Below are positions 986 to 43,200 of a stretch of DNA of 64,000 bases, piece by piece (positions within the stretch are counted from its first letter, which is position 1; each line of letters begins with the position of its first letter). The translations under genes were made by a program, and so were the position numbers. The notes beneath the pieces are model-generated. The model was not told the origin of the DNA, ran no database searches, and worked only from the letters and a program-made list of their open reading frames with translations. Location of the stretch: NCBI GenBank assembly GCA_002633005.1, contig NMRA01000018.1, positions 118,291 through 182,290 of the forward strand. The letters are read 5' to 3'. This DNA comes from Phoronis australis. Its lineage: Eukaryota; Animalia; Phoronida.

Positions 986-3554
986 GTAAACTGTTGAATG
1001 TACCAGTAAAATATTTTAGTTGGAAAGTTTTATTTTTCTGTTGTAATCATTCTCCGTGACTCAAATCATTAAGCACTGAGCATATTTTACTTTGTGTTAA
1101 ATTGGATGCATGTCAACATTTTGCCATTTTGTAATTTTGTCAAGTGTCACGTGCATAGCATGTTGCTCAGACCTCTGTTGACTTTGTGTTTCTTGTATAG
1201 GTGCATACTACACATATAGGTACATCTGCTTAATTCTGGATATAGGCCCAGTTCACATATAGCCATGTGGGTCTAAATACTCTCACATGCTGTATACTAG
1301 TTCAACTGTGACATGGAGCAAATTGACTCTCCAGCAAGGTCACCTGTGTCCAGTTAGTTTTAGCTGCTCTTTTCAAAAATGGTGTTGAGCGTTTGATCAG
1401 AAACTCCTTCGTACATGCTAATTGGTGCCTGCAGCTGGACACCAAGTGGACACCAAGGGATAGTTGGCATAAAACCAATGATTAATCTTACCTTGCACCA
1501 CCTTCGTCAAGATGCGCCATACCAAACTACGTCAAGAAATTTGCACCAAAGCATTTTGATCTGTGTTGCTTTGCATTGTGCCAATATTTCAATGTAGACC
1601 GACATTACACCTATATGTAGCTTGGAGATGTTAATAAGCGGTGGTGCTTTCAGTGTGTCCATGACAAAGTGAAGCCCTTCTTCTGTCCCTACTGTCCACA
1701 CACTGCTTCAAGAAAGGCTATGATGCAGCTTCACATGAGGACCCACACTGGAGAGAAGCCCTTCAAGTATGGTTTTTCCCATTCAGTTCGATTAAATGCT
1801 ATTTGCATATTTCACAATTATTCTGGTTGTCTATGAGGTAAAATCTCACCGATTTAGGACACAATATGGCCGACAAGTGATTATTTTACTTACTTTTTCA
1901 ATTTCTCGTAAAAGATAGTTGGCACCAAATTAATGCTTTTAACATTTTTAATGTTCAGTGCCATAGCTACCATCAGACAATGAATCTCTGAAATTCTTAG
2001 TATTCACAGCAGTGTTAGAAGTGGCCTTTGAAAAATGAAAAAAGGCCTATTTTGACAATTTTTTTTTAGTTTTTACTATAGTACTAGAAATCCAAGCTTG
2101 TTATAGTTGTTCTTTTGTCAAGTATGGGATATGGCATTTACTTATTTTTACTGTGAAACGAAGTATACACCTGTAACCCCTAGGTAGTGAAGTACGGGAC
2201 ACCTCAGAATTTGCTTGCTCGGATTGTCCTGTCTTTCTAAATCAAATAATAGTTGATGTTTTATGTGATAATTTTCACCTAATCAGCAGACAACATGGCT
2301 GACGCATGGCACTTCATTTTGTCAAATATCTCAACAAAAATTAGGATTAAGAAAAGATGCTTGGTAATTTTTTCTTTAGTTGCAACATAGTAGTCGGACT
2401 ACTTTTTGGAAGGTTGAAAAAATAACCATTTTGCCAAATGTCTTTGTGCAAACTAACTGAAGATTTACCAAACAGGTAATTTGTGGAATCATTGTTAATT
2501 ATATCATTTTTGGCCGTAGTAAGATTAAAAAACAGGCAATCGTTGCACAAATAAAAAAGTTCATGTTCATTCAACGTTTCGTCTATTCCTAAGACATCAT
2601 CAGGATAATATATACAATAAGACAGCAAGTGTTGAATACCAGCCAAGTCACATCCATGCAGTGAAATGAGAGTAGGAAGAGATTCAGGGAATAGTAAGTA
2701 GGTCATCACCATAGCTGTAGGGTCACTGAGCTCTGCATGTTATTGAGAGATTCAGTAGCATGCAGGTCCTGAATGGCCAATGAATTGGGCTCATTTATAT
2801 CTTCTATTACGCAATGTCCTCTATTACGCAACGGGTCTTTTCTGTACACTCTAGGTGTGAGGTGTGTACATACTCCACTGGCGATCACAACTCATTGCGA
2901 CGGCACAGGATGAGGCACACCGGCCAGAAGCCTTACAAGTGTGCTCATTGTGCGTACTCGTGTATACAGGCCATCTCCCTTAAGATGCATATGAAGAGCA
3001 AACACATGGGCGAGGAAGGACTGTACGTGTGCAAGGAGTGTCCGTTCCACACTATTAACAAGAAGACGTTTGAAGAGCACTTAGAGGATCATAAGAACGG
3101 ACTGGTCCAAGCTAAGGCGCCAGAGGTGGTTAAACCACCACCAGTGACATCAACGAGCAACGTAGTTCAAGCAAGCGTCATCTCTGGTCCAAGTGAAATC
3201 TCATCGGCTCAGTTCAATTTGATCTACTCGGCTCTCAATGCCATATCACAAAACAGCGGCACCGTATCACTCGGTACAACGGTTGCCGAGGGGGACAATC
3301 AGACGCAAACCATCACTATCCATCTGCCCACAGAACAAGTGGAGGGAGAGTCAGTAGTGTTGGCAGTGGGACAGCCATCGGAGGCGAACGTCCAGGATGT
3401 AGAGTTTGTGGATGCAAGTCAGATTCACATGATTGAAACGGAACAGGCAGCCGAATGTGTTGCTAATGGAGATGAGATCACAAAGGCGGGGGAACAGAAC
3501 CAAGAACATGTTGCACAGCCAGTGCAGGACTCAAGTGTACCAAAAACTGACTGA
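830..3554 (+). CDS. C2H2 zinc-finger protein, 3' part (exons 830-985, 1654-1766, 2855-3554; 5' exons not found in window)
   Basis: Spliced translation gives one partial and five full C2H2 fingers (e.g. CDICNRTFVNIKSLKKHVECVH, CPYCPHTASRKAMMQLHMRTH, CEVCTYSTGDHNSLRRHRMRH) with TGEKPF/TGQKPY linkers, then an acidic low-complexity tail. GT-AG introns are phase-consistent. Confidence 0.9.
1654..1766 (+). CDS. Zinc-finger gene internal exon
   Basis: tttcag|TGT...AA|gtatgg; CVHDKVKPFFCPYCPHTASRKAMMQLHMRTHTGEKPF. Confidence 0.9.
2855..3554 (+). CDS. Zinc-finger gene terminal coding exon
   Basis: ctctag|G TGT GAG; three C2H2 fingers, then a tail ending in TGA at 3552-3554 (ORF 2814..3554). Confidence 0.92.
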
Positions 3555-8242: not shown

Positions 8243-8337
8243 TTATGTTTCAGTTTCAAGGAACTTGTTATAAGCTTCCTCGTCCATAAGCCCTTGTAAT
8301 TGTTCAGGGTGGCTCATCTTGATCTTGAAAACCCAAC
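8243..8337 (-). CDS. GCSH: GCSH exon 5
   Basis: [31 protein letters not shown]. Confidence 0.95.
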
Positions 8338-11300
8338 CTGTGAATGAAAATAGGAGTTACTTAACAAGTGAACAAGCTAAATGATTGTGTGGTAAAGGAT
8401 AAAATTCTAAATTAAAGGTAACATGACAGCTTAATAGAAAACTTTTAAGTTTCCACAATTTAGCAAAAAAGCGGAAAAAGCTAATTTGTCGCATAATCTC
8501 ACATAAGAAAACCAACATGAGGTCTTAGAAACCTTAAGCCAATTCGTGCTGTGCAGTAACAGGTCATCACCATGACGCCAAGGTGAGGCAAAAATCCACC
8601 TTTGCTTTTCAAAAGGTGTATCATTCATTAGTCAAAAAAATTCCCCTCAATAGCAAAGGCTCTGTATAGATCAGCGTCCATCAAAAATAAAATGTATTAC
8701 ACCAAATTCACATAATTTAGTGACAATAAATACGGTAGACTGTCTGTTGTCAGAATAAAAAGAAGGTCCATTTATTATGGTTTTATGAGAGAAAGTTGTC
8801 ATAATAACAAAGTCTTGTAAACAAATCACCGTTGTAGACTGGACTGAATACATTGGCTTTTGTAGGTTACTTTTTTATGTCTAGAAAACAAAGTCGGACA
8901 GCCACTCAGAGAATAGGCTGGTTGCGTACTCGAACACTGAACGGAGTAACAGCTCCATGATCCGTCTTTTCCTCCTATCTTTAGAAAGGACCATGCACGG
9001 CATATGGACAGACCCGCCGTGACACGCCAACTCATCAAGCCGTATCTTAGGCAATAACAAACTGTCAGTTCTTCTAAACTCCAGCAATAACCTCTGATCT
9101 TAGTAAGGAAAACGCCAGCAGTGGATTTATAAAGGTAACTGCCTTAAATTAAAAGCTTTTTTGACAGAGGAAGGCGTTTATAACTTAAATTTCTGGAGTT
9201 TCACCACAAAATGGGTGCTGAAGTGGAATGACGCGAAACTTCCAAATTTAAAACGCCACCTATGAAATTTGTGAATACTGTTCACTGTAAGTCTGTAATC
9301 ATTTATGAAGCATTCCTATTTTAGTGGCACCTTTCACCTGATGAAACTGATATTGTAACAGTGTTCTAAACTAAAGCCAGTATCTTTAAGGGGCACCCAC
9401 CGTCTGTATAACAGGAGTTGTTAATGAGCGAGGGTTCTTCATCCAGTTTCCCGTTCACCTCTGTCACAGTGCCCGAGACAGGTGAGTATAGGTCACTCGC
9501 TGCCTTCACACTCTCCACAGCACCACACTCACCTGCAATCAACACACAGGTAGTAAAAATGCAATTAGAGCAAGTAAACCCAACCTGTTGATAGGTACGT
9601 GAGTACCAATGCACTGACTGGTTAGCAAAGCATAGTAATCAGGATATTAACTGGCTAGAGTGATCAGCTGCAAATTGTTTTCGAGAGGCTAAATGGTTGA
9701 AACTTATTTTTCTGAGGTGAATCAGGATCTGAATTTCCACAATTTTCGGAATGTAGTAAGTGCTGGCACTGAAAGACCAGAAAATAAATAAATAAAACCC
9801 AATGACCATTTTGTCGCCTCCCTTCAGTCATCGCCAACAAAATATGAGCTCAACATAATGTTTCGCCAAAGAGCGTACCAGAGCAGCAAAACATGGACCT
9901 CGGCTTTTTGTTATTCACTAATACGCCATTTGTAACAAAATCACAAAAATGCATAACGTATTTTGTTGTTTTAAAGCTCTGGCCAAAGCTAACAACTTGA
10001 AGGTAACTTGTACGTAACTTGAACGACACTTGTAGGTAACTCTATCCAACAATAATCCCAATAACGCACTTTGCCGATATAAAACTGATAGCGTCACTTT
10101 GAAAGGTTTCCCTGAAAGCAAATAAAAAATAACAACACTATTTCCAGGGGAAATGTATAATTTTTTCAGGAAATATAGTCAGGCCTCCTTTTGCGACTTC
10201 TCCGATCCGCCACTGAATTTTAAATCCATATATATACACAGTCACTGGTAGTTCATCATGGTATAACCTGCCTACCTCCTTGAGCCACCTCTGAATCAAC
10301 ATCAGGCAGTTGGACGAAGACGATATCTCCAAGTGTCTCCTAGAAACAAAGAGTCTAACATGCAAAACTTGAATATCCTGAATGATTGGCTCATTTGTGC
10401 CACTTGCAGCAATAACTAGGTCATGTTAATATCATCAACTAAAATTTTAGCAATTTTAGAGACGTGGCTTTAGCCTCAAATACAACCAAACAACTGTAGT
10501 TGGACCATACTAACTTAACAGAATGTGTAAAATTAAAAGATGGTAACGAAAAGTTATATTTGGTGCACGTGGTCCAATGTCGTTTGCGGTGCATCAGGTG
10601 TATGACTGGCCCCACTGCACGAAACACCCGAGCTAAAACTCTTAAGAAAATGAACAAATTTCCCATTTGTTGCCATGCACTAATGTTATAAGCATGTAAT
10701 GGCGCCATCTGGGAGCTTGCTCCTTAAGCTTTAGAAGCTCGGCACGACTTTACCAGCTGTTTAGGGGTTTCAACGCCAGTCCCACACTAAGGAAACACTG
10801 AAAAAGTTAAGCCCTGAAATGGTTTTCCAACAACTACCGACCGACAAAGCACACTAGTTACACTCTTACATTCTTTTGTGTCAATTGTAGGCAGTCAAAG
10901 CGTCTGAATGGTTTTCACAAGTCTAAATGTAAACCCTGCATTCACATTCACCTGGGCGTGGTTTGAGATTCCCACTGTTCCGATATCTCCTTCCACAGAA
11001 ATATATTCATGGCTTTCAGCAAAGTACCTGTCTGAAAACAGAAACCTATATTTTGACTTTCATTCAGAAATATAGAGAATTAAAGGTGACCCAGATAGGC
11101 AAGTATTGATGTCTCCCGCTATCATTGAAATGACACGTGGGGAGTGTCATATTTTTTACTCCATTTTGTTAGTCTCAAATTGTTGAGTATAACGGCAGGT
11201 CGAGCCTTCTAGAGACAGTAGCAAGAGTTCATAGGTATTATTTCTGGCTTACCACTTGAGAATTCATTGAAATTGATAGTTTTGACCTACCAAGGCAGCG

Positions 11301-12813
11301 CTCAATGCAACTCTAAGAATGATTTGGAGAACATTTGGTAGCACTGAGATGAAAGTGAAAAATCATTAACTACAAGCACAGACAGTCTATAAGTTACATA
11401 ACTATCACTAACAGTCACTTCAAGTGTAATGCAACTCATGCAGTTTGGATATTCTCCTTGTCGCTGGAATACTGTAAAAGGACAATGTTTTGTGCCTACT
11501 CTCAAATCTGTGGACGCCTACCAGTATAGCCAGTATTCAGAGGTCTAAATTATCTAGACTTCAAACCTTCGTCTGAAATGATTTTAACATTCAAATCCAT
11601 AGTTCATATATATTTCCAAGTCCTTGAATTTGAAGTCTTATTCGAAAACAAGTTAACTTTACTTTGAAATTGAACATGAAATAAATGCAATAATTCCATT
11701 GATTACAGAGCTCATAAAATTTTGTACCAGAAAAAGAAGAGCATAGCTAAATAGTTGGATCTCGAAAATCAATTAATTAACTCAAACCCAAAAATAGGGC
11801 GTTCGTGGACAAACTCTTATCACGCTTGTACAGATTTTTACACTGACCACCGTCTCTACTGGCATTAGAGACAGCGAAACTCCTATAGGTGCTTTACACC
11901 AAGGAAGCTTTTTGGCAATTTATGCCTCACATTGATTAAAACATCAAAGTCATGTTGTTATAAGTACCTTTTGCGCATAGAGGGACATGTTAGGAGCCCA
12001 TTAATGTCTTTAATTCCTTCCAATTCAAACAAATACTCCCATTTAATCCAATTTTTTTTCAACCAGTCCTTCGTTCAGTTGCCCAAATCAGCGACTGGCC
12101 ATTTTTGACACTTCACATGCCAGAAGAAATCATACCATATCTTCCAAAGATGTCCCTTAGTCCCTCTCAGGGATTGGAATGACCAATGACAAAAAAGAGA
12201 AATGTTTTCCAGGTGATGAATCATTCCATGCTCAGATACATAAAACAACATGTAAATAGGCTTGTGTCATAGAAATAGTTTTTTTGAGTTGTAAAACTGA
12301 GCAGAAAAAAACGTTTTTGCATGAATTAAGTCAAAGTAATGATAAAAATAGACGAAAAAATAGGAAACTGGAAATCAAATATGAGGAAATTGAAACCTAG
12401 AGACAAAATCCTCTTACACTTGACTCTTGACTGTATAAATTAGGAAAATTCCAAACCCTGCCCTCTGGCTCTGGATCTATGCGCAAAAGGTATTTATAAC
12501 AAAGTGACTTTGACGTGAGGCATGCTTCGTCGAAAAGCGCCTATAGGAGCTTTCACCGTCAGTAGATACGGTGATTACGGTGGTCACTGTCTAGTGCATG
12601 GTGAACTAATAGTTTCTTGTCTTGAGGACAGGTGTAAGGGCGCCGAGTTCGAAGTTCAATACAAGTCCACAAACCTGCAAATTTGCTGCTGGAAATGCTA
12701 ATACTGCGCAGTATGCATAACTGTGGGGGTGTCACGCTCCAGACTTGTTTTGCTTGTAAAGTTTGACGAAAAGCAGGGCGCACGCAACGCAACAATCCAC
12801 GAACTGTTGCCAT
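8243..12813 (-). CDS. GCSH: Glycine cleavage system H protein, mitochondrial (exons 12813-12675, 11031-10952, 10339-10276, 9532-9401, 8337-8243; 169 aa)
   Basis: Arg/Ser-rich presequence [17 protein letters not shown]; [19 protein letters not shown], lipoyl motif [18 protein letters not shown] (Lys codon 9504-9506), GWVFKIK. All introns GT-AG and in phase. Confidence 0.96.
9401..9532 (-). CDS. GCSH: GCSH exon 4 (132 nt, lipoyl-Lys)
   Basis: [44 protein letters not shown]. Confidence 0.97.
10276..10339 (-). CDS. GCSH: GCSH exon 3 (64 nt)
   Basis: [21 protein letters not shown]. Confidence 0.95.
10952..11031 (-). CDS. GCSH: GCSH exon 2 (80 nt)
   Basis: [27 protein letters not shown]. Confidence 0.95.
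12168..12460. mobile_element. hAT-like MITE (CAGGG...CCCTG termini); related copies at 19166-19365 and 26016-26242
   Basis: CAGGGATTGGAAT...ATTCCAAACCCTG, flanked by CCCTCT on both sides. Internal sequence (aaataggcttgtgtcatagaaata) is shared with the 26016 copy. Confidence 0.75.
12675..12813 (-). CDS. GCSH: GCSH exon 1 (transit peptide)
   Basis: ATG at 12813; [17 protein letters not shown]...SSSKFA, donor G|gtttg, phase 1. Confidence 0.88.
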
Positions 12814-14278
12814 CCTGTAAGTGAAACCGATCTGTCCCAAGTTCACTTTTTGAGATTAAAGATAATCTGTCGTCGAGGGTACATTACGAGAGCAAAGCAC
12901 AAGCACGCTACCGAAAGAAATCTTATCCTAAAATGCAAATATATAGAATAACTTAGTTCAAAAGCCTCCTTTTCAGTAACTTTACATTACTAATGAAGAG
13001 TTCTAGAAATATTAAATGTGAGCGATAGAGCATCTTTGCTGATTACAGAGTAGACACCTAACGGTAGAATATCTCGTAATCTAAAGACCAAAGACCGCGT
13101 CCCTGCTGCCCTGTGCGTGAACTTGACTCCGTGCCGCTAGTGGTCAGAAGCCAGCACGCTGGCTAGGCACGTAGGGCACCAGCGAGGGAATCCTGCTTCA
13201 TCTCAAATCGTGTATGCGTGAATTTTGGAATACACGAGGCAGCTTTGACAATTGAGTTCCGCGTTCACGTTCACAAAAATTTGCACTGAGCTAAATAAAA
13301 TTACATTTGTTTTTAACCAACCTTTTTTCAACTGCTGGCCAGTTCCACATAAAAATAATTGATTTAGACTTTCTAATATTCCTCCGGTTTTGTGACATAA
13401 GTTACGGTAAAGGAGAAAATGAGTGATCGTGAGGCTATTCAAAAATTCTTCTCACTGAACAAAAAAGTTTCACGTGATTGCCTTACTCAATTCCACATTC
13501 ACGCAGGAGCGATAAGATTGAGCAGGATTCTGAAGCACAGCAGCCCACTATAATAAGGTCTATGGGGGCGAATCAGGTGTTCTATAATTCTCGTACAGCT
13601 TGTTAAAAAATTGCTTGTGAATATTTTCACTACTCTTGCATATCCAAAGCTATAGAGGCATTTAATCACATCAGTTAACTCGCGAGTCAACGCTTAATTA
13701 CAGCGGCGACGTGGAATATCAACTAGCATTTGGGGGGGGGATCGGGACCGAACGAATGGGAATCTGGTGACGACCGTGACCAGAGGTGAGGTGCGACAGC
13801 CACATATATGTTGACAAGCAAGGTTGTGGCCTACAACCAATCTTTTTTTTTTCGGTTTGGAATATGTCAAACATAGTGGTTTCCGTCCACAAGCAAAGGC
13901 GGACAATTGAAAAGAGCAGAAAATGGTATTACAGGGGTGTTGAGTTACTTGCAATTACTGTAAATATTTAGGATTGTATTTCTAGTGGGCTAAGTAAGAT
14001 AAAGTGCTGCAGGACACTCGCACAAAGCAAATTAAAGCAATAAATTAAGAGAAAATGATTTTCTGTGCCAAATAGGACCTAGAAAAAACGTATTGTTAGT
14101 ATTGTTAGCCTTTTAAGTTGTTTGAAGCCGTGATAGCACCCATTTTAGTTTATGGATCAGAAATATTGAAAGGAATTTGAAAATGTTCAAACCAACTTCT
14201 GTAAATTATTACTGTTTATTACTGTTTATTAAGACGACAATAACCATGGGAAAGGAAGAGTGTAACCGTGGGCATGAT

Positions 14279-14332
14279 TTATATGTGTCTTATATGTGTC
14301 TTATATGTGTCTTATATGTGTCTTATATGTGT
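14279..14332. repeat. 11-bp tandem repeat (TTATATGTGTC)n, ~5 copies
   Basis: Directly visible. Confidence 0.9.
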
Positions 14333-16347
14333 AGTCCTGTAAAATATTTTTAGATATGGAAAAGCAAAATGATAGACTTCCAAAACAATGCTTTTTTCAT
14401 TTCATACGAAAGGCAATTGCAAGCTCAAAATAATTGAAATATCCGTATTAAAATGTGTTGCATATAACTGCTTTGATCACGTATGGTTGAACCGGGAGTC
14501 AGTGATGAACAATATGTTTGTTGGAATTCAAACAACGGCCGAGAGATGTAACTTTCAAAATTGGTTATGTGGGGAGAAGACACAGCAGCAGATATTTTAC
14601 AAAGCAAACAGAAGTTCAACCGCATGTATAAAGTTCGTGAAAACTATTTTGAACTGTGGACCGATGGCCTCCTGTTCAAATAAAGTCATTTACATTATCG
14701 AAAAAATCTGACTTCTAAATGGGCTTTCTCGACTTGTTCAACAGTCCGAAAACGCTCACCAGCCTAATACCTCTAATTCGATCATAAAGTTTCCTTTAGT
14801 ATGCTGATAGGACGTTACTGAATTCCTTTATCTACGAGTACTTTCAAAGCATTTACTGGACAAAAACGGCCAGACCCCGGCCTTCAAAACTCACGGATCC
14901 TCCAAAGTAACTTTGCGATAGTTATAATTTTGCCGTCGCATTATCAAGCGTCACGTCGATAATTTTTATATGTACTTGACGTTATGCAGCAACTAAACTT
15001 ATCCTGCGTATAAGTTTTGACGTTTTACGGTGCAACATAGCGGCCCTGAAGTATGATATAAAGGTGGTTTTGATATTTTATAATATCATTCTAAGTTATA
15101 ATTCGAAAGAGATTTAAATATTTATTACTTAAAGTCCAGCGCATATCGATCACCAATGAAGTTGGTGCTATTCGAACATAACTTTATTCAACAAAAACGT
15201 GAAATTGTATTGTATTATGGTTTTGAAAAAAGTTGAAACGAAAGCTTCCTCTCAATTAGTGGTCACTGAGCTAATCTTATAAGTATAATCAAATTTTTTT
15301 GGTTTAAAGTTGTCTGAAATAGTTTGAACAGGAAAAATAAATGGAGCGGCTGTTCAAATGCTCTCATTGATGTTAGATCTCGTGAGCAGTAAACATTTTA
15401 CAAGCAACAGAATTATCTAAACGGCAATGATGGTCATTGAGAAGAAATTATTGTTGAGTATAACGAAGTTGTGCGCGAAAATTATGTGTTCCTGTAGTAG
15501 GCTGTGATAATTTCATTCTCTAAAACATACACTGAAACGTGGACTTAAGAACAATTTATTCACAGGAGTTCATCATGAAATCTCAAAGCTGCAAATCCTC
15601 AATTGAAATGGACAAAACTACGAAAAGCTAAGTCGCAGAAATACAAATTGCTGTTATCACTCCTCTAGCCGCTTACACATAGGATTCGGGACACTTAATA
15701 CGTTGACCTATCGACTACTGCCAGATAACTGAACCAAACTCTTCCGTTATAACCCATGTCTAATGTTAACAGTTTTACACAAGTTTCAAAGTCTTCTAGC
15801 AAAGTCCACTGAGTCGGCAAGCGTAAACAATGCTCGGTTCAGGCAGTGGAAAACTACTGCCCAGCTCGAACCAAGACTACAGTGATGGAAATATTTGCGC
15901 TGTATATAATGCGTGTCTTTCTTGAGGACTAACTGCAGGCCTACAATAGCATTGAAATGAAATCACTTAAAACAGTTATTTTAAAGCTGCCTTTCGCCCA
16001 GTTTACAGAACTAAAAAACGAAAATCGAATCAGTCCGTCAACATTCTTACCGGCTCTCAACTAAAAACTCAAGTATTACACAGACATGCCCTATTTTGGA
16101 ATTTGCAATTTTCGGGGTTAGCCAACCTGAACAAAATCTGAAACAGTTGGAAACCATCAGTGACTCAAGCATCTCACTGAGTCGCGGATGGTTTCGATGT
16201 TTTGGTAACGGAAATGGGCTCCTATCGCGATAAGGAATATTATGGGACAGATAGTAAAAACATAATCTGGTTTTAGTTTTTAGCCAGTTGAACAGGGCGA
16301 AATGCAACTTTAAAATGACAAATCCTTAATCAAGGATCGGTAAAACA

Positions 16348-16445
16348 CTAAAATTCTTCAACTTCAGTGAAACTCTTGTAAGCTTTCCCATCCATCAGGC
16401 CCTGTAATTCATCAAGATTTCTCAGCTTGATCTTGAATATCCAAC
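16348..16445 (-). CDS. GCSH-like paralog exon 5
   Basis: GWIFKIKLRNLDELQGLMDGKAYKSFTEVEEF*. Confidence 0.93.
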
Positions 16446-19400
16446 CTGTGAATGAGATCATGAATCTGACTTACAACCGAACTGTTTGCAAGACATTCCT
16501 CAGTCGATGTGTGTTGCGACCAGAAATTTTAGCTTTTGTCAGCAGATACCCAGAGTATTCCTGTTCAACTAGCAGTTTAAACAAAAGATGCATTTCCTAC
16601 CAAAAAGCAATTTGGTGTTAGAGCGTTTACCATCAACTAGAAATGTCTCTTGGAATAACGCAGAATTGATTCACCAATAGCCCAAAATACTTGCAACAGG
16701 AAATTGCTAACCACTTTGTATTGAAAGATATGCTAACAAATAACAAACGTGTAAAGAGTCGACAGTTATTTTAGTGGCTAAAACGAAATAAAAATGTAAG
16801 TCTTGAACCGGCGTCGGAATATGGATCATACACATTTTTGTCTGGTTTGTGGCCAACAAGCGGCATGAGACTACATGTAAAAATTTTGCGAGCTAAAACG
16901 AAATGGTTTCAAAAACGTTAATAATGTTACATATATGTAATTTTTCACCCAGCAACATAAACATTGGTGATTTACAAGAAATAAGTACGCCAGGTTGCAT
17001 TCACTGCGCGTACGTTATCATAATTTAAAATTAAGTTTAATTCGTGCATGCACAAGGGCGAGACCGCAACAACACGACCCTTGGGGTACTTTTTAGGTCT
17101 ACACCTACCATCTGTTTCACAGGCTCTATTGATGAGTGATGGCTGACCTTCCAGTTGTCGGTTCACATCCGTAACAACGCCAGAGACCGGGGACGTGACG
17201 TCACTGGCACCCAACGCACTTTCCACGACACCAACGGTATCTGCAATTTCCATCCCGGTGAGCACTCAGTATACAATTACTCAATGTCCTGGTTTATGCT
17301 CTATATTAACGTAATCAAACGGATATCTGCAATTCACGATGTTTCAACATTTTAAAAATATAGTTACCAGTAGGCAAATGCCTCAAATAAACGACGATTT
17401 ATGCTCAGGCGTTTTGTACTTCGCCACGTATTTCGCGGAGAAAAGAAGCCCCTGCAACTGACAAAATGAGGGGAACATTTACATGCGTGCACCCAGGGAG
17501 GGGAGCTCGGGGGGGCTTGAATGAGCCCCCCGCCCCCCATTTGGAGAAGAGGGCAAAAGGTCCGCCTCAGAGAAACAAAAAGTTCGAGAAAACGAGACAA
17601 AAGTCCACTAAAAAGGCGCAAACGCACAGTGAAGGTGGGTACCCCGTTTTTTTTAGTCCCACTTTTTTGTCAGCAAAAGGTCCATATCGCCAGAAATTCG
17701 AGCCCCCCATATTAAAGGCTGGGTGCGCGCATGATTTAAGCATCGGGTTCCATTCATCTTTTGAAAGCGATGCAGGTTGGTTTTTGCCACGGAATTTATA
17801 AAATCGGATGTACAATGATAAGACTACGTACCATCTTTTTCTACTTGTGCACGGACGTTTGGCAGCTCAACATAAACGAATTCTCCTAGTTTTCTCTGCA
17901 ATCAGATGAAGTGGATATGGAGATATAAATGAACTCGGTTGATCATCATGAACGACTGAGGTACTGAAAGCGGCGAGGTAAAATAGTCAAACTAAATTTA
18001 ATTCCAACTTACGATTTCAACAATAACAACGTGCTAATTAAGTCTACCAATAGACCCAAAAATTTCCTTGTCATGATAACCATTGTTTTTTTTACAAAAC
18101 GTCACTCGTTACTGCGACTGCAACGGCATAGATTTGGAAAGGATGGCCCAACCTATCAAAACTACGACTTTTCAACACTGCTCGATGCTGTGACAGGTGT
18201 TTTGGGAATGAAACACGTGTTTTTCTATATAAAGAACATGATAGAAAACCAAGAACTGAAACTGACGTACATGCCCTTAAGTAATCTGGCCTGATTTGTG
18301 GCTGTTGCACCAGCGTATTTAAACCTATGCAGCCTATTCGAAGAAGCGCCCATACACGTCACTAGGCGCTTGTGTCTATACGCGAACCGTTTGCTTGAGT
18401 CGCACCGTACTGGGAAGTTTTGCTCGACCGACACATAGGTGGATTTAGGGGGGGTCGCCCCCGCCCCCCCCCCCCCTTGGCTGCGGCGGCAAAAATAAAA
18501 CAGCAAAGGCGTGAAAGGCGTGAGGTAATTATCGTTATACGGCTGAAACGAGATTTAACAATGTGCAGTTTTAGTTTGTGTGCGAGGGGGGGGGGGGCTC
18601 AGACCCAATTTCAAGTGTCCGATTCAGATCACTGGCGCATTCGTAACGGAAATATGGATAAGTAATGGCGCTCCCGGTCGATATGTGCATAAATTCCCAG
18701 GCGACCGGCAGTGGCGCTGCGCACTACCACTCCGTTTCTGTCGTCTACTCCACTGTGCAATTGAAGAAAATTACGGAATCTGAGTGACGATGATGAAACA
18801 GGAGCAGCTGGTAAGATGTAAATTTTAGCCAAAAGCCTTAGTGAATCACGCAGAAACTCATAATTCTCTCTTTGTCAAACATTAAAATTAAGACGATTTC
18901 CACAGGCACAGCAATCGCTAGCCAGCCAGCTAGCTGTATGAAGACTGTCGTCAAAATACAGTCCCCCTCCCGAGCTCCCCCCATTCGGCGCTATGCGCCT
19001 CTACAATCGTGCTTTGCGCGATTGTTTACTAGACAAAATGTTGCCCCCTCCTTATGATATCCTAGATCCGCCACTGTGATATACGTGCATCTAATTATTT
19101 TCAAGTTAAAAAATCTCAGGTGTTTGGTCCGTGGAATGTACAGTGAAGAATCTTGTATACCGGTACAGGGCTTGGAATAAGAGGAAAAAATTCCAGATAA
19201 ATAGAAATGTTTTTGTGTTGTAAAATTAACTGCAAGAAACGTTTTTTTGTATGAATAAAGTCAATATAATGATAAAAAAGAGATGAAAAGATGAAGCTGG
19301 AAATCAAATGAGCTGAAACAAAAAAAAGAGGAAGTCCTCTTAAAAAAAGAAAATTTCAAGCCCTGTGTACATGATGTAAGCTCACGTAATATGCCTAGAC

Positions 19401-20170
19401 GTAATGCATGTAGACGAATTTACTTAGCTCGGCTGGTTTGAGAACCCGCTGACTTTACCTGTGCGTAATCGGTGACTCCAACTACACCGACATCACCTTC
19501 CATGAAAATGTACTCATGGTCTTTAGAAAAGTACCTATCTAGAAATGAAAACAATAGTATTTTAGTAGCTATTATTTACCTTCATGTATAAGTATGGCCA
19601 GTATGGCCTAATCAGAACAAAGCCTTTCACTGGGTTCATCAGTGTCCAGAGCCCACAAATACGCATTCGCTTAATTGCACCCAACAGGATAGAGAATGGT
19701 TCGTTGGTAGGCTGGTTAGCTAGGAGGTGTCACAAACAGGAAGGTGGTGATTTTGCCCTCTAACGTCTCAGTGCTCACTAGAACAATCTGGTACATTACA
19801 CTGACGCACAGAAGCAGTTGATTGGAAAGAGGTGGAAATAAAAAGACGATTCGAGCTTGTTGAGTTTTGTGGCCTTCATTGTGCTGTATGCTTAAATATC
19901 CGCGGAAAAAGGAATGGTCGGTTCCTCGATCTGAGAGAACGAACTTAAAACATGCGTATAAATAAGCCACTTAGTGAAACTGAACACTGAACTAAAACTC
20001 AGGCGGCCGGGGGTTACAAGAAACAGTGCACATGTATGCTCACCATCACTCCTTGCCAGAGATGATTTCAATTGTAAATTTACCTATTTGAATTACAGTT
20101 GGATTTGGAAACAGTAATGTTCGTATGTATCACCATGATTCTTACCCATCTGTAAACGCTCCTTTCTCAT
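16348..20170 (-). CDS. GCSH-like paralog lacking the lipoyl-lysine (exons 20170-20146 [tentative], 19538-19459, 17895-17832, 17240-17109, 16445-16348; ~132 aa)
   Basis: Exon sizes 80/64/132 nt and phases are identical to the neighbouring GCSH. About 54% aa identity by manual alignment (66/123), with no stops or frameshifts. The motif reads VVESALGASDV. Confidence 0.9.
17109..17240 (-). CDS. GCSH-like paralog exon 4 (Lys replaced by Leu)
   Basis: DTVGVVESALGASDVTSPVSGVVTDVNRQLEGQPSLINRACETD. Confidence 0.95.
17482..17733. mobile_element. GC-rich MITE with 15-bp TIRs
   Basis: CATGCGTGCACCCAG ... CTGGGTGCGCGCATG, flanked by ATTTA on both sides. Confidence 0.75.
17832..17895 (-). CDS. GCSH-like paralog exon 3
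   Basis: RKLGEFVYVELPNVRAQVEKD. Confidence 0.92.
18433..19076. mobile_element. Non-autonomous DNA element with CAGTGGCGGATC-type termini
   Basis: CATAGGTGGATTTAGGG ... CCTAGATCCGCCACTG imperfect inverted termini; poly-G/C tracts; a similar end occurs at ~10204-10215. Confidence 0.55.
19166..19365. mobile_element. hAT-like MITE copy
   Basis: CAGGGCTTGGAAT...ATTTCAAGCCCTG; homologous to 12168-12460. Confidence 0.7.
19459..19538 (-). CDS. GCSH-like paralog exon 2
   Basis: DRYFSKDHEYIFMEGDVGVVGVTDYAQ. Confidence 0.93.
20146..20170 (-). CDS. GCSH-like paralog, putative first coding segment MRKERLQM
   Basis: ATG directly after an in-frame TGA; strong donor ATGG|gtaag in phase 1, giving Asp with exon 2; acceptor candidate ttcag near 20259. 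Confidence 0.5.
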
Positions 20171-22045
20171 TCAAGCCAATTTTAGCCTTTCACTTGATGC
20201 ACCTTATCCTGAATGTTATTGGTCCGCGCCCGAATTGGCTATTCTTGCGTACACTACCCTGAACTCAAATTTGACACAATGACAACAACTAAGTGACAAA
20301 GGCATGTTTCCATTGAATACGTAATGCACAATGAGTGATGCCTAGCCATAGGCCGTTTTTAAAAGGGGGCTTTATCTGCGAGAAAAGTGATTTCTGTGAC
20401 TGAAACCTGCAGGCCGCGGCCGGTTGCATTTGTCCAACGCTCTGCAAGCTGGCGGAGCTAAATCTTACTCCAATAAATGACGTGGCAGCGTATTTAGCTT
20501 GATTCAACGGATGTTTAACAGAGAACGTTGGGAATTAGCGACGTCAAATAAAACAACAAACCACATAACGGACTTACAGCTTTGGTCGAAGCTATAACAC
20601 TCAAGATGTCTATCCCATGATCCAAAAATGTGTTTTCGGTCATAAAACGGATCTTGTGATGTCCCTCAATTTAAGGCTAACTATACAAGCTATGTTTACA
20701 TGAAAATAAAAAAATATGTTTCCATTTGTCCATAACAGAGGGTTTCCCGGTCAAAAGAAACTACCAGGAAACGTATAGTTGTAGTAGTAATTTAACGAGT
20801 CAGGTGTCAAAAGTGTAATTGCGTCCTGCAAGTTTGTTTTTCCAAAAAAGGTCATCCCCATGTACTGAGCTTTCGCAGCGTGGTTTCTCACGTGACCGAC
20901 TGTCCCCTGGAGTGCCACAACTGATATTCAATGACACGGTCTACCAACTGCAAGGTTTGGCTGTGGATGCGAGAATTTGCACTAGCTGAACAACAAATTT
21001 GAATTACTAAGGACAAACGTGTTGTGTAGCTCGATCTGTACGCAATTACGGCAATCTCTCTAATTACGGTCCACTGTATCCTTACGAGCACCAAACTTCA
21101 CCTTTCTGGAAAGTACACACAGTGAAGATCGGCAGTCCGGGCCCTATTCCATAAATGCGAACGGTTATCAACTCGCGGAGGATTGTATTTCTTCCCTTAT
21201 GAACAGACACTAAAACGTAACGCTAACTAGACATTGTTTCATTTTGAATATCACCGGCAATGTCATTGTGCGACCCCGCTGTGGTTGATGAGATTTATCT
21301 ACCATGTCGCACAAATATGTTACGTAGGGCCTAAGCTAATGACTTTGCCGATTGAGAAAGCGACATCAGAGGCAGACTTATTTGACTGCCACTGACAACA
21401 TGATGCAAAACAAACAAAAAATGCTATAATCTCTGTATACCAGTGTATGAACTGAACACGTCCCCTAGGTCAGTAAGTAATTCGTCTGCTAAAGTTCAAG
21501 GATAGAATACGTTTGTTGGTTTTCCAAGGCCACTTGGCTATCAGTCGGGAAAATAAAGTATTGATGCCAAATATGTTGTTTGACAAGTTTGCAAAGATTA
21601 CTACCATAAAGGTGTTGGTCAAAAATTAATTAATCTTCCATCTTAATGGAATTCTGCGTGTGCGTGTGAGTGAGCCCCAATTTTTATCAGAATATATATA
21701 CACAGACTAGTCTAGGAGGCTCAAATGTCAAGAATATCCCAACATTCTGAGTGAAGTTTTTTTACCCCCCCCCCCAGGTGTCACCATCTCAAAAAAGATC
21801 AAATTTTCACCAGCCATAAAAATTCTATTTATTGCAATGATAACTTACATGCTGAATAAATAACCATTTTATTGCATACAAACCATATATACAGATGACA
21901 TTCATTTAAAATCAAAAAAACAAACATGCTCCTCTTCAAAAACACCAAAATCATTTTTAAATCTCCTAATATTTGTTTCAATAACAATCTCACCTAGGCA
22001 GCAACACCAGACTTAGTGATGCCACATAGTCAAATGACAAGTGTC

Positions 22046-22293
22046 ACCATAAATTTTCACCAATTTTTGACAAAAATGATTGCCAAAATCACATTTTATT
22101 TCATTTTTCAAGGTCTTCAAACATTGTTGGGAATGTCCAAAATTTTTCAAAATATTTTCTGCTGTTGTACAGAACTTGGATGTATAGCAATGCATCCTTC
22201 TGAAACTGCGTATCATTCATGAAAAAATGAGAAAATAAACTTTCACCTGCAGTGTCTGACATATTGCATCTCAAATTGGTGAGATTTTATAGT
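22046..22293. mobile_element. MITE family with ACCATAAAATCTCACCAATT-type TIRs (second copy 22796-23047; fragments near 1840, 40995, 43915)
   Basis: CACCATAAATTTTCACCAATT ... AATTGGTGAGATTTTATAGTG inverted termini; the motif recurs across the window. Confidence 0.65.
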
Positions 22294-22795
22294 GCTCTTG
22301 ATTAACCTAGCAAATACACATGGTATCATTCTAATAACAATGAACCATTATTGACTTTTAACGTTACAAAATATAATAGTGTCGATCACCAGTTAACATT
22401 TGATACAGCCAGCGAAATTATACACTAGTCAACAGTATTAGCACTGAAAGACATCACTTTGGGATCAACTTGAATGCCATGAAAACCAAGTGCGAACAAA
22501 AACAGAACTACCTTGACATGGTCATCAGATAAATCAGTGAAATTTCTGTTCATTTCGTTGTATTTCAGAACTGTACTGTACTCTACTTCGTAATACTGTT
22601 GTGCAGTATAGTTCAGTGAAATGAAGTGGACTATTTTACACCGAAGTGTAATATTTCATAGTGAAACAGTAAATGTTATTATTATACAGTACAATGCACA
22701 ACAGCTGAATACAATCTAATAAAATGCATTATTACACTGAATTGTATCATCTACAGTGTAATATTACACAATAATCTTATTGTCCACCACAGAGA

Positions 22796-23047
22796 ACCAT
22801 AAAATCTCACCAATTAAGGATGCAATATGGCTGATGAAAGAACTCTTTATTTTACCATTTTTTCCATGAAACCTGTGAAGCATCAAAATTACTTGCTTTT
22901 GAATGTTCAAGTTTTGTACTACAGTTACCATTAGGCACAGTTAGGAATAATTACGAGCATTCACAGTAATCATCTTCAAAACCCTTGAAAACAAAAAAGG
23001 CAATTTTGGCAATTAATTCCACCTGAAATTGGTGAGATTTCATGGTA
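22796..23047. mobile_element. MITE copy of the same family
   Basis: ACCATAAAATCTCACCAATT ... AATTGGTGAGATTTCATGGT. Confidence 0.7.
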
Positions 23048-23053
23048 ACAGTA

Positions 23054-23138
23054 AAGTGTGACACAAGACAACGTGCTACATCTGAGGACAGTTAAGTGTG
23101 ACACAAGACAACGTGCTACATCTGAGGACAGTTAAGTG
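23054..23138. repeat. 40-bp direct tandem duplication
   Basis: AAGTGTGACACAAGACAACGTGCTACATCTGAGGACAGTT x2. Confidence 0.9.
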
Positions 23139-25021
23139 CAATATAGTTGAGAAACACAAGAGTACCCTGCCTAGTTATGAGCTGCCACATACTGTCAAAT
23201 GTCTAGCGCGTAAAACGTAAGTATTGTTGTACTCAGTCAAGTCGTTTTTCAGTTTTCGAGGCATCAAATCAAAAGTCCCAATAAAATAGAAGCTCTGGCC
23301 TCAAAATTTTTTCAAACACAGACCTGTGTCAAGCAATTTGTGGCCAGCTAAAAAGACGAGACAACCTAGACTTGTTGATAAGACTACAGTTGTATTATCT
23401 GCTTTCCATTCCAACAATTCAACAGATTACCACCTTTCACAAAATTCAGAATACACAGTTCACTACAATGTGTCAAGTTATATCCATCAGTTTTTCAGAC
23501 TTACGCTTTCCATGTAATACGCAGAGGAAAACGAGGTTGCCTGTAAGTTGTCAAGAACTCCCCAGGGAGCACTCAACTATATTTTAGACAAAGGGTGAGC
23601 AGCAGGACCCATCTAAAAATGGACTCAAAAAGGATCCATTTATAAGGAGCTTCTGCGATCTGGTCGAGAAAAAGTCATCCTGAGCAGCAGGTCCCGTATA
23701 CCTATTGTATGGGGGCGCTCCAGTTTCAATATGGTATTATAAACTAAGCAAGCCTAGTCACAATTGCAGAGCAGTCACTCAATATCAACAAAACGGTGCC
23801 ACAGTACATCGACGAATCTTTAAACTTGTACAAGCTCAGTATGCCTGAGGTCCAAAAATAATGATTGCCACTTTAGCTTATATAACATACGTAACCGACA
23901 AAGATGATACTCCTTAGTTACCAAACAGGCTGATCACTGCTGTAAGCACAGTAACAGGCTAACAGTAACTGCGAGCAATCACTTAGTTCAGTTTGCTCCG
24001 ACTATGCTAAGAAGCCGTTACATCACCGAGTCCCTGGCTAACATGGACCAGCAACTGAAAGAACAACCAACGCCATATCTCCCAAGAAACTGTACATGCT
24101 GTGGCCAACTCGGATCCTGCAACATACCTCACCTACTGTCTATACTTCTCCTGGATGGGTTTTTGTCACACTAAGAATTAAAGAAATCTTTGATTATATC
24201 CCAGCTCATTTAGACCTACGTAGCCGTTGGTATTTTTAAAGGACCCATGAGGAACCCTTTCCAGCTGAAAATTGACCGTCGGACGGCCTTCGTCCGACGG
24301 TTGGAGTTTGCTAATGCGATCACAATAGCCCATTGAATTCAGTCCAGCTGCCTGGCCTGCTTGGTCACGTACGTAATCCTTTAATGACACCTCATTATGC
24401 CATAAAACTACGCGCCTGTCGACTATTGGCAAAAAAAATAAAGTTTATTTTAAAAATCTACCTGCCTAACCGAATTCCTCGCGAAAATCTAAGCATTTTA
24501 GAACTTTGAATTTTCTTTCTAGGCCAGAAAATAAAGTTTTTATTAATATAAAAATTTACCACCTTGTGTACGAGCAGAGCGCAAGAATTTACAAAGGGTA
24601 TATTGTGATTCGCCGCCATGAGGCAGCTTATAATTTCCTANCTTCTTCAGCAGTCTAAAGTGGGAAATACAGGCTTTCCTACAATTATCAAACAATCATC
24701 TTAACGCGTGACCCCAAAAATTGGATTTGTTCGTATTTCTTCTCAGAATTGATTTTCCACCTCAACTTTCTACACACAATAACAATAAGTACCTAAAGAA
24801 CCAAGAAGAGGCTGCAGTCTGCTCATCAAACAAGCCAAAGAATGGATCTGCCAGCCCCCATGCATGAGGACCCTCGCTCATACTGTGGCCGTAAAGACGA
24901 GACTGACAAGCTTCCCTCTTTACTCCAATGACTCTGTGCGTACAGCAAATTTATCAGCTTCACACTATTGATAAGGACGTAGACATTCCACCATGAAGTG
25001 AAGAACAGCTTCATTCCACCA

Positions 25022-40200: not shown

Positions 40201-43200
40201 CCCTTCCATTTACTGTTTAAAGTAAGAAATTTTTCCATTAAGGACACATTATGAAAGAAGTAGAATTTTATTTAGCAAAAATGTCAAAAAATACGAAAAT
40301 TTCACCTGATATCACCCATGTAGTTTATACTGAAATGTCACCAAACAGTAATATTGCTAAAATTACGAGCATATGCAGTTAATTCAAAAAGGGTAATATT
40401 ATTAGTTAGTCCTAAGTTGAAGTCTTACCACCGCCATTTTGGTAGATGTGAATTCACATCACCATTCACAACATCACTCATGGAAATCCTCAGTCTTTTG
40501 ACCATTTGTCATTGCTCAGTGATAAAAAGTCACACGATTGATGATAAACTTTGCATGGAAAATTATATAAACCGTTAATATGTGCCATGTCGTTTTTCCA
40601 TGTCCATCTTGCAGAGTCTTCCTTATTTCATCCTACTTTAACGTCATAATAAATGACATTATTCTCAATTCTCATCTTGTTTTACTCTGCAACATAGCTC
40701 GTCGCATACCCCGGGCAAAATAAATTACGATAATATGAACTCTTATTCATTCATATCATATCATGCCATTCACAGAAATGGTTGATATGAATTCATTATA
40801 AAAATATTTTATGGTGAACCATCCAAAATTGCCTGCATAAACGTGAACTCAAGAACTGAACTAGCAGATTTCCGTGCTGTGTTAGTATAGGTCTCAATAT
40901 TCAGTAGTAAAGGAGAAAGAATTGAAATAAATTTTTAAGCGATGATTCATAAGACAGTGCTGTGAATGTTCGTCATGGTGATGGAAATCACGGTTAAATC
41001 TCACCAATTTCGAACAAAAAAAAAATTGTGCTGAATTTTCCCTCTTATCGTTTTTCAAAGGCTTATAACACTGTTGTGAATGTCCATATGTAAAATGTTA
41101 ACATGCTATGAACATTCCCACTAAATAAAATTGGTTCTAACCCCGGTGTTTAAGGTAAACGGCGGGGTATGGAAAATTGAACTAGACCGTATTTATCCAC
41201 CTTGGCTGAGACGCGCTCGGCTCATGCTCAAAGGGATGCCGCCAAGCTGCTCTATTCATCGAGTCACGAGCGAGGATAATTGACTTCGCTCATGCGGATA
41301 TGATCAGCTGATTACAGTCTAGCCTAACAACTGTNNNNNNNNNNNNNNNNNNNNNNNNNNNNNNNNNNNNNNNNNNNNNNNNNNNNNNNNNNNNNNNNNN
41401 NNNNNNNNNNNNNNNNNNNNNNNNNNNNNNNNNNNNNNNNNNNNNNNNNNNNNNNNNNNNNNNNNNNNNNNNNNNNNNNNNNNNNNNNNNNNNNNNNNNN
41501 NNNNNNNNNNNNNNNNNNNNNNNNNNNNNNNNNNNNNNNNNNNNNNNNNNNNNNNNNNNNNNNNNNNNNNNNNNNNNNNNNNNNNNNNNNNNNNNNNNNN
41601 NNNNNNNNNNNNNNNNNNNNNNNNNNNNNNNNNNNNNNNNNNNNNNNNNNNNNNNNNNNNNNNNNNNNNNNNNNNNNNNNNNNNNNNNNNNNNNNNNNNN
41701 NNNNNNNNNNNNNNNNNNNNNNNNNNNNNNNNNNNNNNNNNNNNNNNNNNNNNNNNNNNNNNNNNNNNNNNNNNNNNNNNNNNNNNNNNNNNNNNNNNNN
41801 NNNNNNNNNNNNNNNNNNNNNNNNNNNNNNNNNNNNNNNNNNNNNNNNNNNNNNNNNNNNNNNNNNNNNNNNNNNNNNNNNNNNNNNNNNNNNNNNNNNN
41901 NNNNNNNNNNNNNNNNNNNNNNNNNNNNNNNNNNNNNNNNNNNNNNNNNNNNNNNNNNNNNNNNNNNNNNNNNNNNNNNNNNNNNNNNNAGCTTTCCACC
42001 AAGGCTAGGTGATGCAAGACATTATTATTTGTTCTTTGTTGCATTATAGTAACTGGTCTTGGCTAATTATCATTTTATGGCCTGGTCATCCATTCAGCCC
42101 AAAGTAGTTCCAGAGGTGGCTTATCAGCCAATTATTCACGCATGCTGACTCACAATAGAAGCCTGATAAGAGTGCAGGTGGATAAATGCAGTGTTCCTAC
42201 AGTTTCTTGTTTTAGTGGATGTGTTCACGACATGAAAAATATTATCTAGTGGTAGCCGAGGCACAGAGCTTGAACATAGAAAGCATTCATTTGACTAATT
42301 TACCTTTCAAGAAAAAATGAGAAAAAGAAATCTGATTAGTCCGCCATACTGTGGGACTCAATTAGTGACATTTTACCACAAGTCCTGTCACAAAAAATTT
42401 CAAGACAGCCTTTAAGATAAAATAACCTTTTACTGTGATCTTGATTTCCAAGGATTTCCATGCATGTAACACAACAATCAGTTATGTAGTTTTAAGTCCC
42501 ATTCTTGAAATTTGAAAATAGAGAACTGAAATACAACTGCTTGAAGGCAGTATTCCATGCTTGTCGATGAAATGTCAGTCAATGTATCAACAGGTCTTAC
42601 CCAGGTACCCCGCCAGCCTCCATGTGATTGGCTATGGTGACGTCATCTGACCAGACATCATACTGCCATTTCCTCAGCCCCAGCACTCCACACAGCACAT
42701 TGCCAGTGTGGATGCCTATACGCATGTCAACATTACAACCAGTCGCCTCTCTCACCTCCCTGTAAACAATTGAGTGTTCTAAATCACCAGCGAAAATGGG
42801 CGCTAGCTTAAGAAAGAGAATAATCTGTATAACTTAACAACGAAAATAACATTCCGTTCCCATCCTTTCATGTTCCTCTTGAAACGTTTGAACAACCAGT
42901 TAAGCCTTGCAAACTGTTAACAGTTAATTATTTTAAATAACCTATTCTTATAAAAGGGACATAAGCACAAATGTATTTTCCGGCCTTGGAAGAGGGGTCC
43001 CCTATATAATACGGAGGGCCCCCACCTAAAGAGTCCCGTCGATCAGGGCCCTCATATTAATATTATAGAAGATGCACTATTACTGTGAGCAGTATAAAGA
43101 GTTTCCTTCTCATAACCAAGGAGTCCCCGCAGACAACACAAATGCCTTTAATGAAGTCACAAAAACTGATGACATTATCACTACAGTACTACTCATTGTC

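What the first reader, a model, noticed from the sequence alone, without database searches (positions are those of the whole stretch)
16348..20170. Intact tandem H-protein paralog that cannot carry lipoate (ESVKAAS -> ESALGAS)
Seen: this second GCSH copy keeps every exon size and phase and an open frame, despite ~46% aa divergence from its neighbour. Its lipoyl turn is rewritten at three consecutive codons (GTG AAG GCA -> GCG TTG GGT; Leu at 17212-17214 vs Lys at 9504-9506), and Lys to Leu needs two base changes. Several acidic or neutral positions have also become basic (ETLG->RKLG, DS->RA, AQ->EK, GK->RQ, NS->RA). Established: H-protein's roles as the glycine-cleavage swinging arm and as the LIPT2/LIAS/LIPT1 lipoyl-relay scaffold both require that Lys. 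Inference: a conserved pseudo-carrier with a new role, such as a decoy or regulator of the P/T/L proteins or lipoylation enzymes, or an unrelated binding scaffold.
Basis: partly seen in the sequence, partly recalled or inferred. Interest (0 to 1): 0.85.

Follow-up and report, generated by a model that had tools for sequence, protein, structure and literature searches.

The report
Lipoate-less, untargeted H-protein duplicate
An invertebrate keeps an old, spliced second copy of the mitochondrial glycine-cleavage H-protein gene that has lost the lysine that carries lipoic acid and likely its mitochondrial address, yet preserves the rest of the fold, so it likely serves a new non-metabolic binding role outside mitochondria.

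Summary
Real, and more than decay. A tandem GCSH copy (minus strand, 16348-20170) has Leu (TTG, 17212-17214) at the lipoyl-Lys position, an open frame, 65 of 122 residues identical to its neighbour, and dN/dS about 0.29 (CI 0.14-0.50). It keeps 26 of 30 near-invariant H-protein residues. The four lost (V106, K107, A108, Y113, human numbering) all lie at the lipoyl site; neutral drift would have changed about 20. Spliced sense reads occur in 1 of 3 raw RNA runs, at roughly a quarter of the neighbour's depth. New here: the likely first exon codes only 8 residues behind an in-frame stop (1-2 reads), so the 46-residue mitochondrial presequence is gone. That argues against a decoy of mitochondrial P/T/L or LIAS. 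The 'basic shift' is weak: net charge -9 is normal for animal H-proteins. Best reading (0.5): a sample-restricted, likely cytosolic, non-lipoylated H-fold binding protein, an independent repeat of the ABITRAM/Simiate route. A BADC-like decoy (0.15) and slow decay (0.25) remain. No ortholog was found, but the databases showed no close relative. The scan noted Lys-less GcvH folds before, in bacteria with other architectures.

The parts
20146..20170 (-). Likely coding exon 1 of the Lys-less paralog: 8 codons plus 1 nt, GTAAGA donor, in-frame TGA at 20171-20173 before the ATG; a second ATG just before the donor would start at the mature N-terminus. No presequence.
   Evidence: Sequence. 57 sense read-bases in bin 20126-20276, run X2 only, zero in both flanking bins; 1-2 reads, joint not listed.
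20218..20238 (-). Two CCAAT boxes around a GC-rich stretch upstream of exon 1; promoter-like, untested
   Evidence: Seen in sequence; chance expectation not computed
19459..19538 (-). Paralog exon 2 (80 nt)
   Evidence: GCV_H E=0.0022; about 2 sense reads in X2
17832..17895 (-). Paralog exon 3 (64 nt), carries E77R and T78K on the LIAS-contact helix
   Evidence: exon 3-4 joint in 4 reads
17109..17240 (-). Paralog exon 4 (132 nt) with the rewritten lipoyl hairpin ESALGAS and Y113T
   Evidence: (GCV_H 39.3 bits, cut-off 22.2); depth about 6-7 in X2
17212..17214 (-). Leu codon TTG at the position of the lipoyl lysine (human K107)
16348..16445 (-). Paralog exon 5, coding part to TAG
   Evidence: exon 4-5 joint in 5 reads from 3 starts
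12675..12813 (-). Neighbour (canonical GCSH) coding exon 1, 46-residue presequence-like peptide
   Evidence: joint 11031-12675 in all 4 runs
10952..11031 (-). Canonical GCSH exon 2
10276..10339 (-). Canonical GCSH exon 3
9401..9532 (-). Canonical GCSH exon 4 with ESVKAAS (Lys codon 9504-9506)
8243..8337 (-). Canonical GCSH exon 5 to TAA; the 3' UTR runs to 7400 or beyond

Best explanation
This is an old tandem duplicate of GCSH, spliced in some samples only, whose product lacks the lipoyl lysine, likely lacks a mitochondrial presequence, and likely works in the cytosol as a small non-lipoylated H-fold binding or adaptor protein. Steps. Shown: duplication with the same intron positions and unalignable introns; Lys to Leu; purifying selection on the fold; sample-restricted spliced mRNA. 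Likely (1-2 reads plus sequence): a short first exon with no presequence. Inferred: without import the protein would never meet LIPT2, LIAS, LIPT1 or the P, T and L proteins, which would free the lipoyl hairpin (V106, K107, A108) and the arm-handling Y113 to drift, while the barrel core and the acidic pocket that normally shelters the aminomethyl-lipoyl arm (H57, E58, S110, D111) stayed constrained. The most likely use is binding a protein or small amine or acyl ligand at that empty pocket or the altered helix-1 face in one tissue or stage. The partner is not identified.
For: NG86 dN 0.32, dS 1.10, ratio 0.29, bootstrap 0.14-0.50. 26 of 30 positions that are at least 90% conserved in 26 non-redundant homologs are kept; the 4 lost fall within 8 residues, P=0.004 for any such span; a two-rate model (six invariants in 106-113 against 24 others) gains 2dlnL=23.5, window chosen after seeing the data. 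Independent set of 144 representatives: 15 of 18 positions at least 80% conserved are kept, and only 106-108 differ. Spliced sense reads in X2: joints in 5 and 4 reads, exon-4 depth about 7 against about 29 for the neighbour. 57 read-bases at the short exon 1, whose only strong donor is at 20145, with an in-frame stop before the ATG and no pyrimidine-rich acceptor; no trace of the neighbour's presequence in 19540-22000 (best tblastn E=0.75). The pocket residues named in PMC7733448 (E. coli His-13, Glu-14, Ser-67, Asp-68) are kept and Tyr-70 is lost. Precedent: Simiate/ABITRAM is described as H-protein-derived and sits in somata and nuclear speckles (PMC3859600).
Against: No protein evidence, no partner, no localisation test. 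Exon 1 rests on 1-2 reads; an alternative upstream exon with a presequence is not excluded. The paralog branch is about 4 times longer than the neighbour's (0.70 against 0.18; relative-rate chi2 5.8-15.1 with 4 outgroups, 1.7-3.0 and not significant with 2), so the branch dN/dS is about 0.45 if dS is split evenly (inference): relaxed as well as constrained. Ligase and LIAS recognition acids (E104, D111, D81 as E) are kept, which a purely new role does not require. No ortholog is known.
Confidence: 0.5

Rival explanations
1. Slowly decaying or dispensable duplicate: constraint relaxed after the presequence and lysine were lost, and the gene is on its way to pseudogenisation with residual transcription.
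For: Paralog branch about 4 times faster. No exon-4 reads in 2 of 3 raw RNA runs or in the contig run. A recent neutral phase of d up to about 0.1 is not rejected by the count of lost invariants (P=0.29). No ortholog found.
Against: Recent uniform decay cannot place 5 base changes in three hairpin codons and 3 in Y113 while 24 other invariants are untouched. No stop, no frameshift, all splice sites intact at dS about 1.1. In X2 the mRNA reaches about a quarter of the neighbour's depth.
Confidence: 0.25
2. BADC-like pseudo-carrier: the protein reaches mitochondria by a non-classical or alternative-exon route and competes with, or helps to assemble, H-protein complexes with LIAS, LIPT2, LIPT1, P or T, tuning lipoylation or glycine cleavage in one tissue.
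For: E104, S105, A109, S110, D111 and G118 around the hairpin are kept; of 17 human H residues that touch LIAS (PMC12246082, Supplementary Table 2), 8 equal the neighbour's and 3 more are conservative. Hairpin divergence (d about 1.0 on one branch) is high enough to allow selection against lipoylation. Plant BADC proteins are the precedent (PMC11926652).
Against: No presequence in the likely exon 1; the first 20 residues hold 5 K/R and 4 D/E. E77R and T78K face LIAS Arg110, Ile84 and Pro85, and V106 and K107 contacts are lost. BADCs keep their plastid location (recalled).
Confidence: 0.15
3. Assembly or reading artefact (haplotig, sequencing error at the Lys codon).
For: The codon was not read directly in raw reads; variant rows were partly hidden.
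Against: The copies differ at 33% of coding bases with unalignable introns; five base changes over three adjacent codons; reads from an independent RNA run fit exon 4 at 95% or better and splice at its ends.
Confidence: 0.02

Closest known systems
GCSH / GcvH, glycine cleavage system H-protein (Pfam PF01597)
   Same: Exon 4 alone passes the Pfam cut-off (39.3 against 22.2 bits); nearest solved structures are mammalian H-proteins 3KLR, 2EDG, 8UGO; same intron positions as the neighbour; 26 of 30 invariants kept.
   Different: No lipoyl lysine (117 of 117 and 144 of 144 H-type homologs have it); V106, A108, Y113 changed; likely no presequence; sample-restricted expression.
ABITRAM / Simiate / FAM206A
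   Same: A eukaryotic protein described as descended from H-protein (about 20% identity) and found outside mitochondria (PMC3859600). That it lacks the lipoyl lysine and binds actin is recalled, not checked here.
   Different: ABITRAM is pan-eukaryotic and ancient; this copy is a lineage-level tandem duplicate, 53% identical to its GCSH neighbour, groups with it in the tree (bootstrap 70) and shares its introns. An independent event, not an ABITRAM ortholog (direct comparison not run).
Plant BADC1-3 (non-biotinylated BCCP paralogs of plastid ACCase)
   Same: Carrier-domain paralogs that lack the cofactor-attachment motif and act as inhibitors or assembly factors (PMC11926652).
   Different: Biotin rather than lipoyl system; BADCs are conserved across plants and found in the enzyme complex; here no partner is shown and co-localisation is doubtful.
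Bacterial Lys-less GcvH-like proteins noted by this scan (e1-4760579, e1-4896506, e1-4677257)
   Same: H fold without the lipoyl lysine, in tandem paralogs (unchecked AI notes).
   Different: Bacterial, fused to cysteine-rich or membrane domains under sigma-54 control; none appeared among the 145 hits to this exon.

Membership tests
GCV_H sequence family (PF01597) | Profile score above the curated cut-off | tested here: met
   Exon 4 peptide 39.3 bits against 22.2, E=7e-10
Functional GCS H-protein (GCSH) | Lysine in the beta6-beta7 hairpin for lipoylation (human K107) | tested here: not met
   Leu; nearest lysines are at 96 and 146, none in the turn
Functional GCS H-protein (GCSH) | N-terminal mitochondrial presequence | tested here: not met
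   Likely exon 1 codes 8 residues behind an in-frame stop; rests on 1-2 reads; no targeting predictor was available
Functional GCS H-protein (GCSH) | Barrel core and arm-sheltering pocket (E. coli His-13, Glu-14, Ser-67, Asp-68, Tyr-70) | tested here: inconclusive
   4 of these 5 kept, Tyr-70 equivalent lost; no structure model of the whole protein was made
Functional GCS H-protein (GCSH) | Acidic LIAS-binding surface | tested here: inconclusive
   8 of 17 contact positions equal the neighbour; E104, D111, E81 acidic; E77R, T78K, V106A, K107L changed
BADC-type pseudo-carrier (works-like) | Carrier fold without the cofactor lysine | tested here: met
BADC-type pseudo-carrier (works-like) | Binds and modulates the parent enzyme complex in the same compartment | not testable with these tools
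   No binding test was possible for the spliced protein; lack of presequence argues against the same compartment
ABITRAM/Simiate | Orthology to the pan-eukaryotic, about 20%-identical H-derived family | tested here: not met
   53% identity, shared introns and tree grouping with the adjacent GCSH; no ABITRAM sequence was compared directly
Pseudogene | Disabling mutations, neutral evolution or no spliced transcript | tested here: not met
   Open frame, dN/dS CI 0.14-0.50, spliced reads in 1 of 3 raw runs; a recent short neutral phase is not excluded

The most novel reading that the evidence does not exclude
The first animal pseudo-carrier of the lipoyl system: a tissue-restricted, unmodifiable H-protein that keeps the acidic ligase and LIAS recognition residues and acts as a BADC-like brake or assembly factor on protein lipoylation or glycine cleavage.
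Probability: 0.15. Interest if true: 0.8.

Novelty: new variant of a known kind. Interest (0 to 1): 0.52.

Why it matters
If the best reading holds, this is a recent, still-alignable replay of how a cofactor carrier turns into a non-metabolic protein. ABITRAM is the ancient case, too diverged to dissect. With the parent gene next door, the order of events (address lost first or lysine lost first) and the new use of an empty lipoyl pocket can be tested directly. It is also a natural scan of which H-protein invariants serve lipoylation (106-108, 113) and which serve the fold. If the decoy reading holds, it would be an endogenous regulator of lipoylation, for which my searches found no animal example in print. 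Limits: one genome, no ortholog, no protein data.

Tried and rejected
Ortholog searches, all blank. (a) Word-indexed search with exon 4, proteins of 80-2000 aa: 0 of 34 candidates passed. (b) phmmer over 1.84 billion representatives: 145 hits, best identity 64%, 144 with Lys and 1 unrelated 1781-aa repeat protein, which was dropped from later counts. These blanks are weak: the neighbour's own exon found nothing above 76% among the 120 listed of 4028 hits and the adjacent zinc-finger gene nothing above 69%, so no close relative showed up. No whole genome is held, so further copies elsewhere in this genome were not sought; within the window there are only two. The ESM Atlas did not complete. The run index listed no RNA holder; four runs came by species label, and only 18-19% of each raw run was read. 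Whole-protein folding and complex prediction were not run, because those tools do not take a spliced product; binding is therefore untested. Rejected: the net basic shift as evidence; an alternative lysine in the turn (none); a remnant of the neighbour's presequence upstream; the shared 110-bp element at 12269-12380 and 19201-19309 as duplication evidence (a dispersed repeat in different introns). Caveat on invariants: the first homolog set was gathered by exon-4 words, which inflates exon-4 conservation (A108 and Y113 are 84% and 74% in the second set), and 26 of 117 sequences were kept after an 80% redundancy filter. Literature searches listed no paper that by title or abstract describes a Lys-less GCSH duplicate in an animal; subscription journals and bioRxiv supplements are not covered. 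The scan's own records had no look-alike.
Full report
Setting. The window is intron-rich animal DNA. The adjacent zinc-finger gene's best named matches are molluscs and a nemertean at 67-69% identity, so the host is likely a lophotrochozoan without a close relative among the hits. On the minus strand, in the direction of transcription, lie an adenylate cyclase gene, the copy in question (20170 to 16348) and a canonical GCSH (12813 to 8243). No whole genome is held.

Observation. Exons 2-4 of both genes are 80, 64 and 132 nt with the same phases and AG/GT ends; the copy's frame is open; 65 of 122 residues and 67% of coding bases are identical. The lipoyl turn GTG AAG GCA is GCG TTG GGT in the copy, with Leu at 17212-17214. 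Alignment to human H-protein (8UGO) puts this Leu at K107, the lipoylated residue (PMC12246082, passages). Introns do not align, apart from one dispersed repeat. Exon 1 is not conserved (below). And the charge shift is not unusual: the copy gains ten basic residues and loses three, but its net charge (-9) matches six eukaryote-type GCSH cores (-7 to -13), and the neighbour (-17) is the odd one.

Selection. Between the copies dN is 0.32, dS 1.10, ratio 0.29 (bootstrap 0.14-0.50); 20 of 33 fourfold sites differ. The copy evolves faster: branch 0.70 against 0.18, significant in relative-rate tests with 4 of 6 outgroups. If dS is split evenly, the copy's own ratio is about 0.45 (inference). The pattern is what matters. 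Of 30 positions at least 90% conserved in 26 non-redundant homologs (from 117), the copy keeps 26 and has lost V106, K107, A108 and Y113. Neutral drift at d=0.55 would change about 19.5 (P=6e-9 for 4 or fewer), at d=0.2 about 10 (P=0.009); d=0.1 is not rejected by the count. But four random invariants fall within 8 residues in 107 of 27405 combinations (0.4%), and a two-rate model beats one rate by 2dlnL=23.5 (window chosen after the fact). A second set of 144 representatives repeats this: 15 of 18 positions at least 80% conserved are kept and only 106-108 differ (this set is informative mainly for exon 4). Y113 is E. coli Tyr-70, one of the residues that handle the aminomethyl-lipoyl arm; His-13, Glu-14, Ser-67 and Asp-68 equivalents are kept (PMC7733448, passages; mapping). 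So the lipoyl site has been free or driven to change for a long time while the fold was held.

Expression. Four runs of the same species label were laid (18-19% of each raw run read). The neighbour is spliced in all four. The copy has sense reads on its exons in X2 only: exon 4-5 joint in 5 reads from 3 starts, exon 3-4 joint in 4 reads from 2 starts, exon-4 depth about 7 against about 29 for the neighbour; X1, X3 and the X4 contigs have zero depth in the exon-4 bin. Tissue and stage are not given. X1 and X2 show the same alleles at several sites of the neighbour's transcript while X3 differs, which fits a tissue or condition effect (inference). The Leu codon was not read directly in these reads, because most variant rows were hidden.

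Missing address. The neighbour's exon 1 codes 46 residues with 7 K/R and no D/E, a typical presequence composition. For the copy, X2 has 57 sense read-bases in 20126-20276 and none in either flanking bin. The only strong donor there is at 20145; the ATG at 20170 has an in-frame TGA directly before it; no pyrimidine-rich acceptor lies upstream within the exon region. The N-terminus would be 8 residues, or a single Met, before the mature domain. No remnant of the presequence is found in 19540-22000. This rests on 1-2 reads, so it is likely, not shown. Lipoyl assembly (LIPT2, LIAS, LIPT1) and the P, T and L proteins are mitochondrial (established; PMC12246082).

Partner surfaces. Of 17 human H residues that touch LIAS (PMC12246082, section 9 and Supplementary Table 2), 8 equal the neighbour's, 3 are conservative (Y74, E81, Y84), and 6 are not (E77R, T78K, V106A, K107L, L168T, T170V). 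The ionic anchors E104, D111 and E81 remain, so a decoy is not ruled out by surface; E77R and T78K face LIAS Arg110, Ile84 and Pro85. No binding computation was possible for the spliced protein.

Mechanism. Best (0.5): duplication, then likely loss of the presequence, left a protein that would stay in the cytosol, out of reach of lipoylation; the hairpin drifted; the barrel and its empty acidic pocket were kept for a new binding role in a restricted tissue or stage. Shown: gene structure, Lys loss, selective constraint, sample-restricted splicing. Likely: no presequence. Inferred: localisation, order of events, binding role. Rivals: slow decay (0.25), BADC-like mitochondrial decoy (0.15), artefact (0.02).

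Comparison. It belongs to the GCV_H sequence family but fails the defining features of a working H-protein. It works like neither proven case yet. Simiate/ABITRAM shows that an H-derived protein can take a non-mitochondrial role (PMC3859600, passages; its lack of the lysine is recalled). Plant BADCs show that cofactor-less carrier paralogs can regulate or assemble the parent enzyme (PMC11926652, passages). This scan has unchecked notes on bacterial Lys-less GcvH folds with other architectures and none on this DNA. Eight literature searches, seen as listings with abstract starts, showed no Lys-less animal GCSH duplicate; the library lacks most subscription journals.

Orthologs. None found: 144 of 145 representative hits keep Lys and the other is unrelated. 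Controls show the collections gave no close relative even for the neighbour genes, so conservation across species is untested.

Verdict. A real, constrained, expressed, lipoate-less H-protein duplicate; a new variant of a known kind (pseudo-carrier or repurposed carrier fold). Interest 0.52: a clean and testable case, held back by a single genome, thin read support for exon 1, and no partner.

Noticed in passing
window 13950-14750: Degraded open frames between the two GCSH genes that resemble the C-terminal end of a LINE reverse transcriptase (resemblance recalled, not scanned), interrupted by a 14-bp tandem repeat near 14280-14333.
   Followed up: no
window 17500-17735, 18470-19080, 19200-19350, 12170-12400: Short dispersed repeats in the introns that collect hundreds of reads from both strands at 90-95% identity; 17558-17718 has inverted ends (MITE-like).
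   Followed up: no
window 8243-12813 (canonical GCSH): Unusually acidic H-protein core (net -17 against -7 to -13 in six eukaryote-type homologs); a polymorphic codon at 10293-10294 differs from the assembly in all four runs.
   Followed up: partly
window 21930-23400 and beyond: Long transcribed minus-strand region ending near 21929, likely the 3' UTR of the adenylate cyclase gene; it leaves under 1.8 kb for the paralog's promoter.
   Followed up: no
window 2784-3554: Last exon of a C2H2 zinc-finger gene on the plus strand, tail to tail with GCSH; homologs in molluscs, nemerteans, brachiopods, chelicerates and beetles.
   Followed up: partly
window 41300-42000: Assembly gap; the window holds 658 N in all.
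   Followed up: no
window 15555-15560: The only AATAAA or ATTAAA within 950 nt downstream of the paralog's stop, a candidate poly(A) signal on the minus strand.
   Followed up: no
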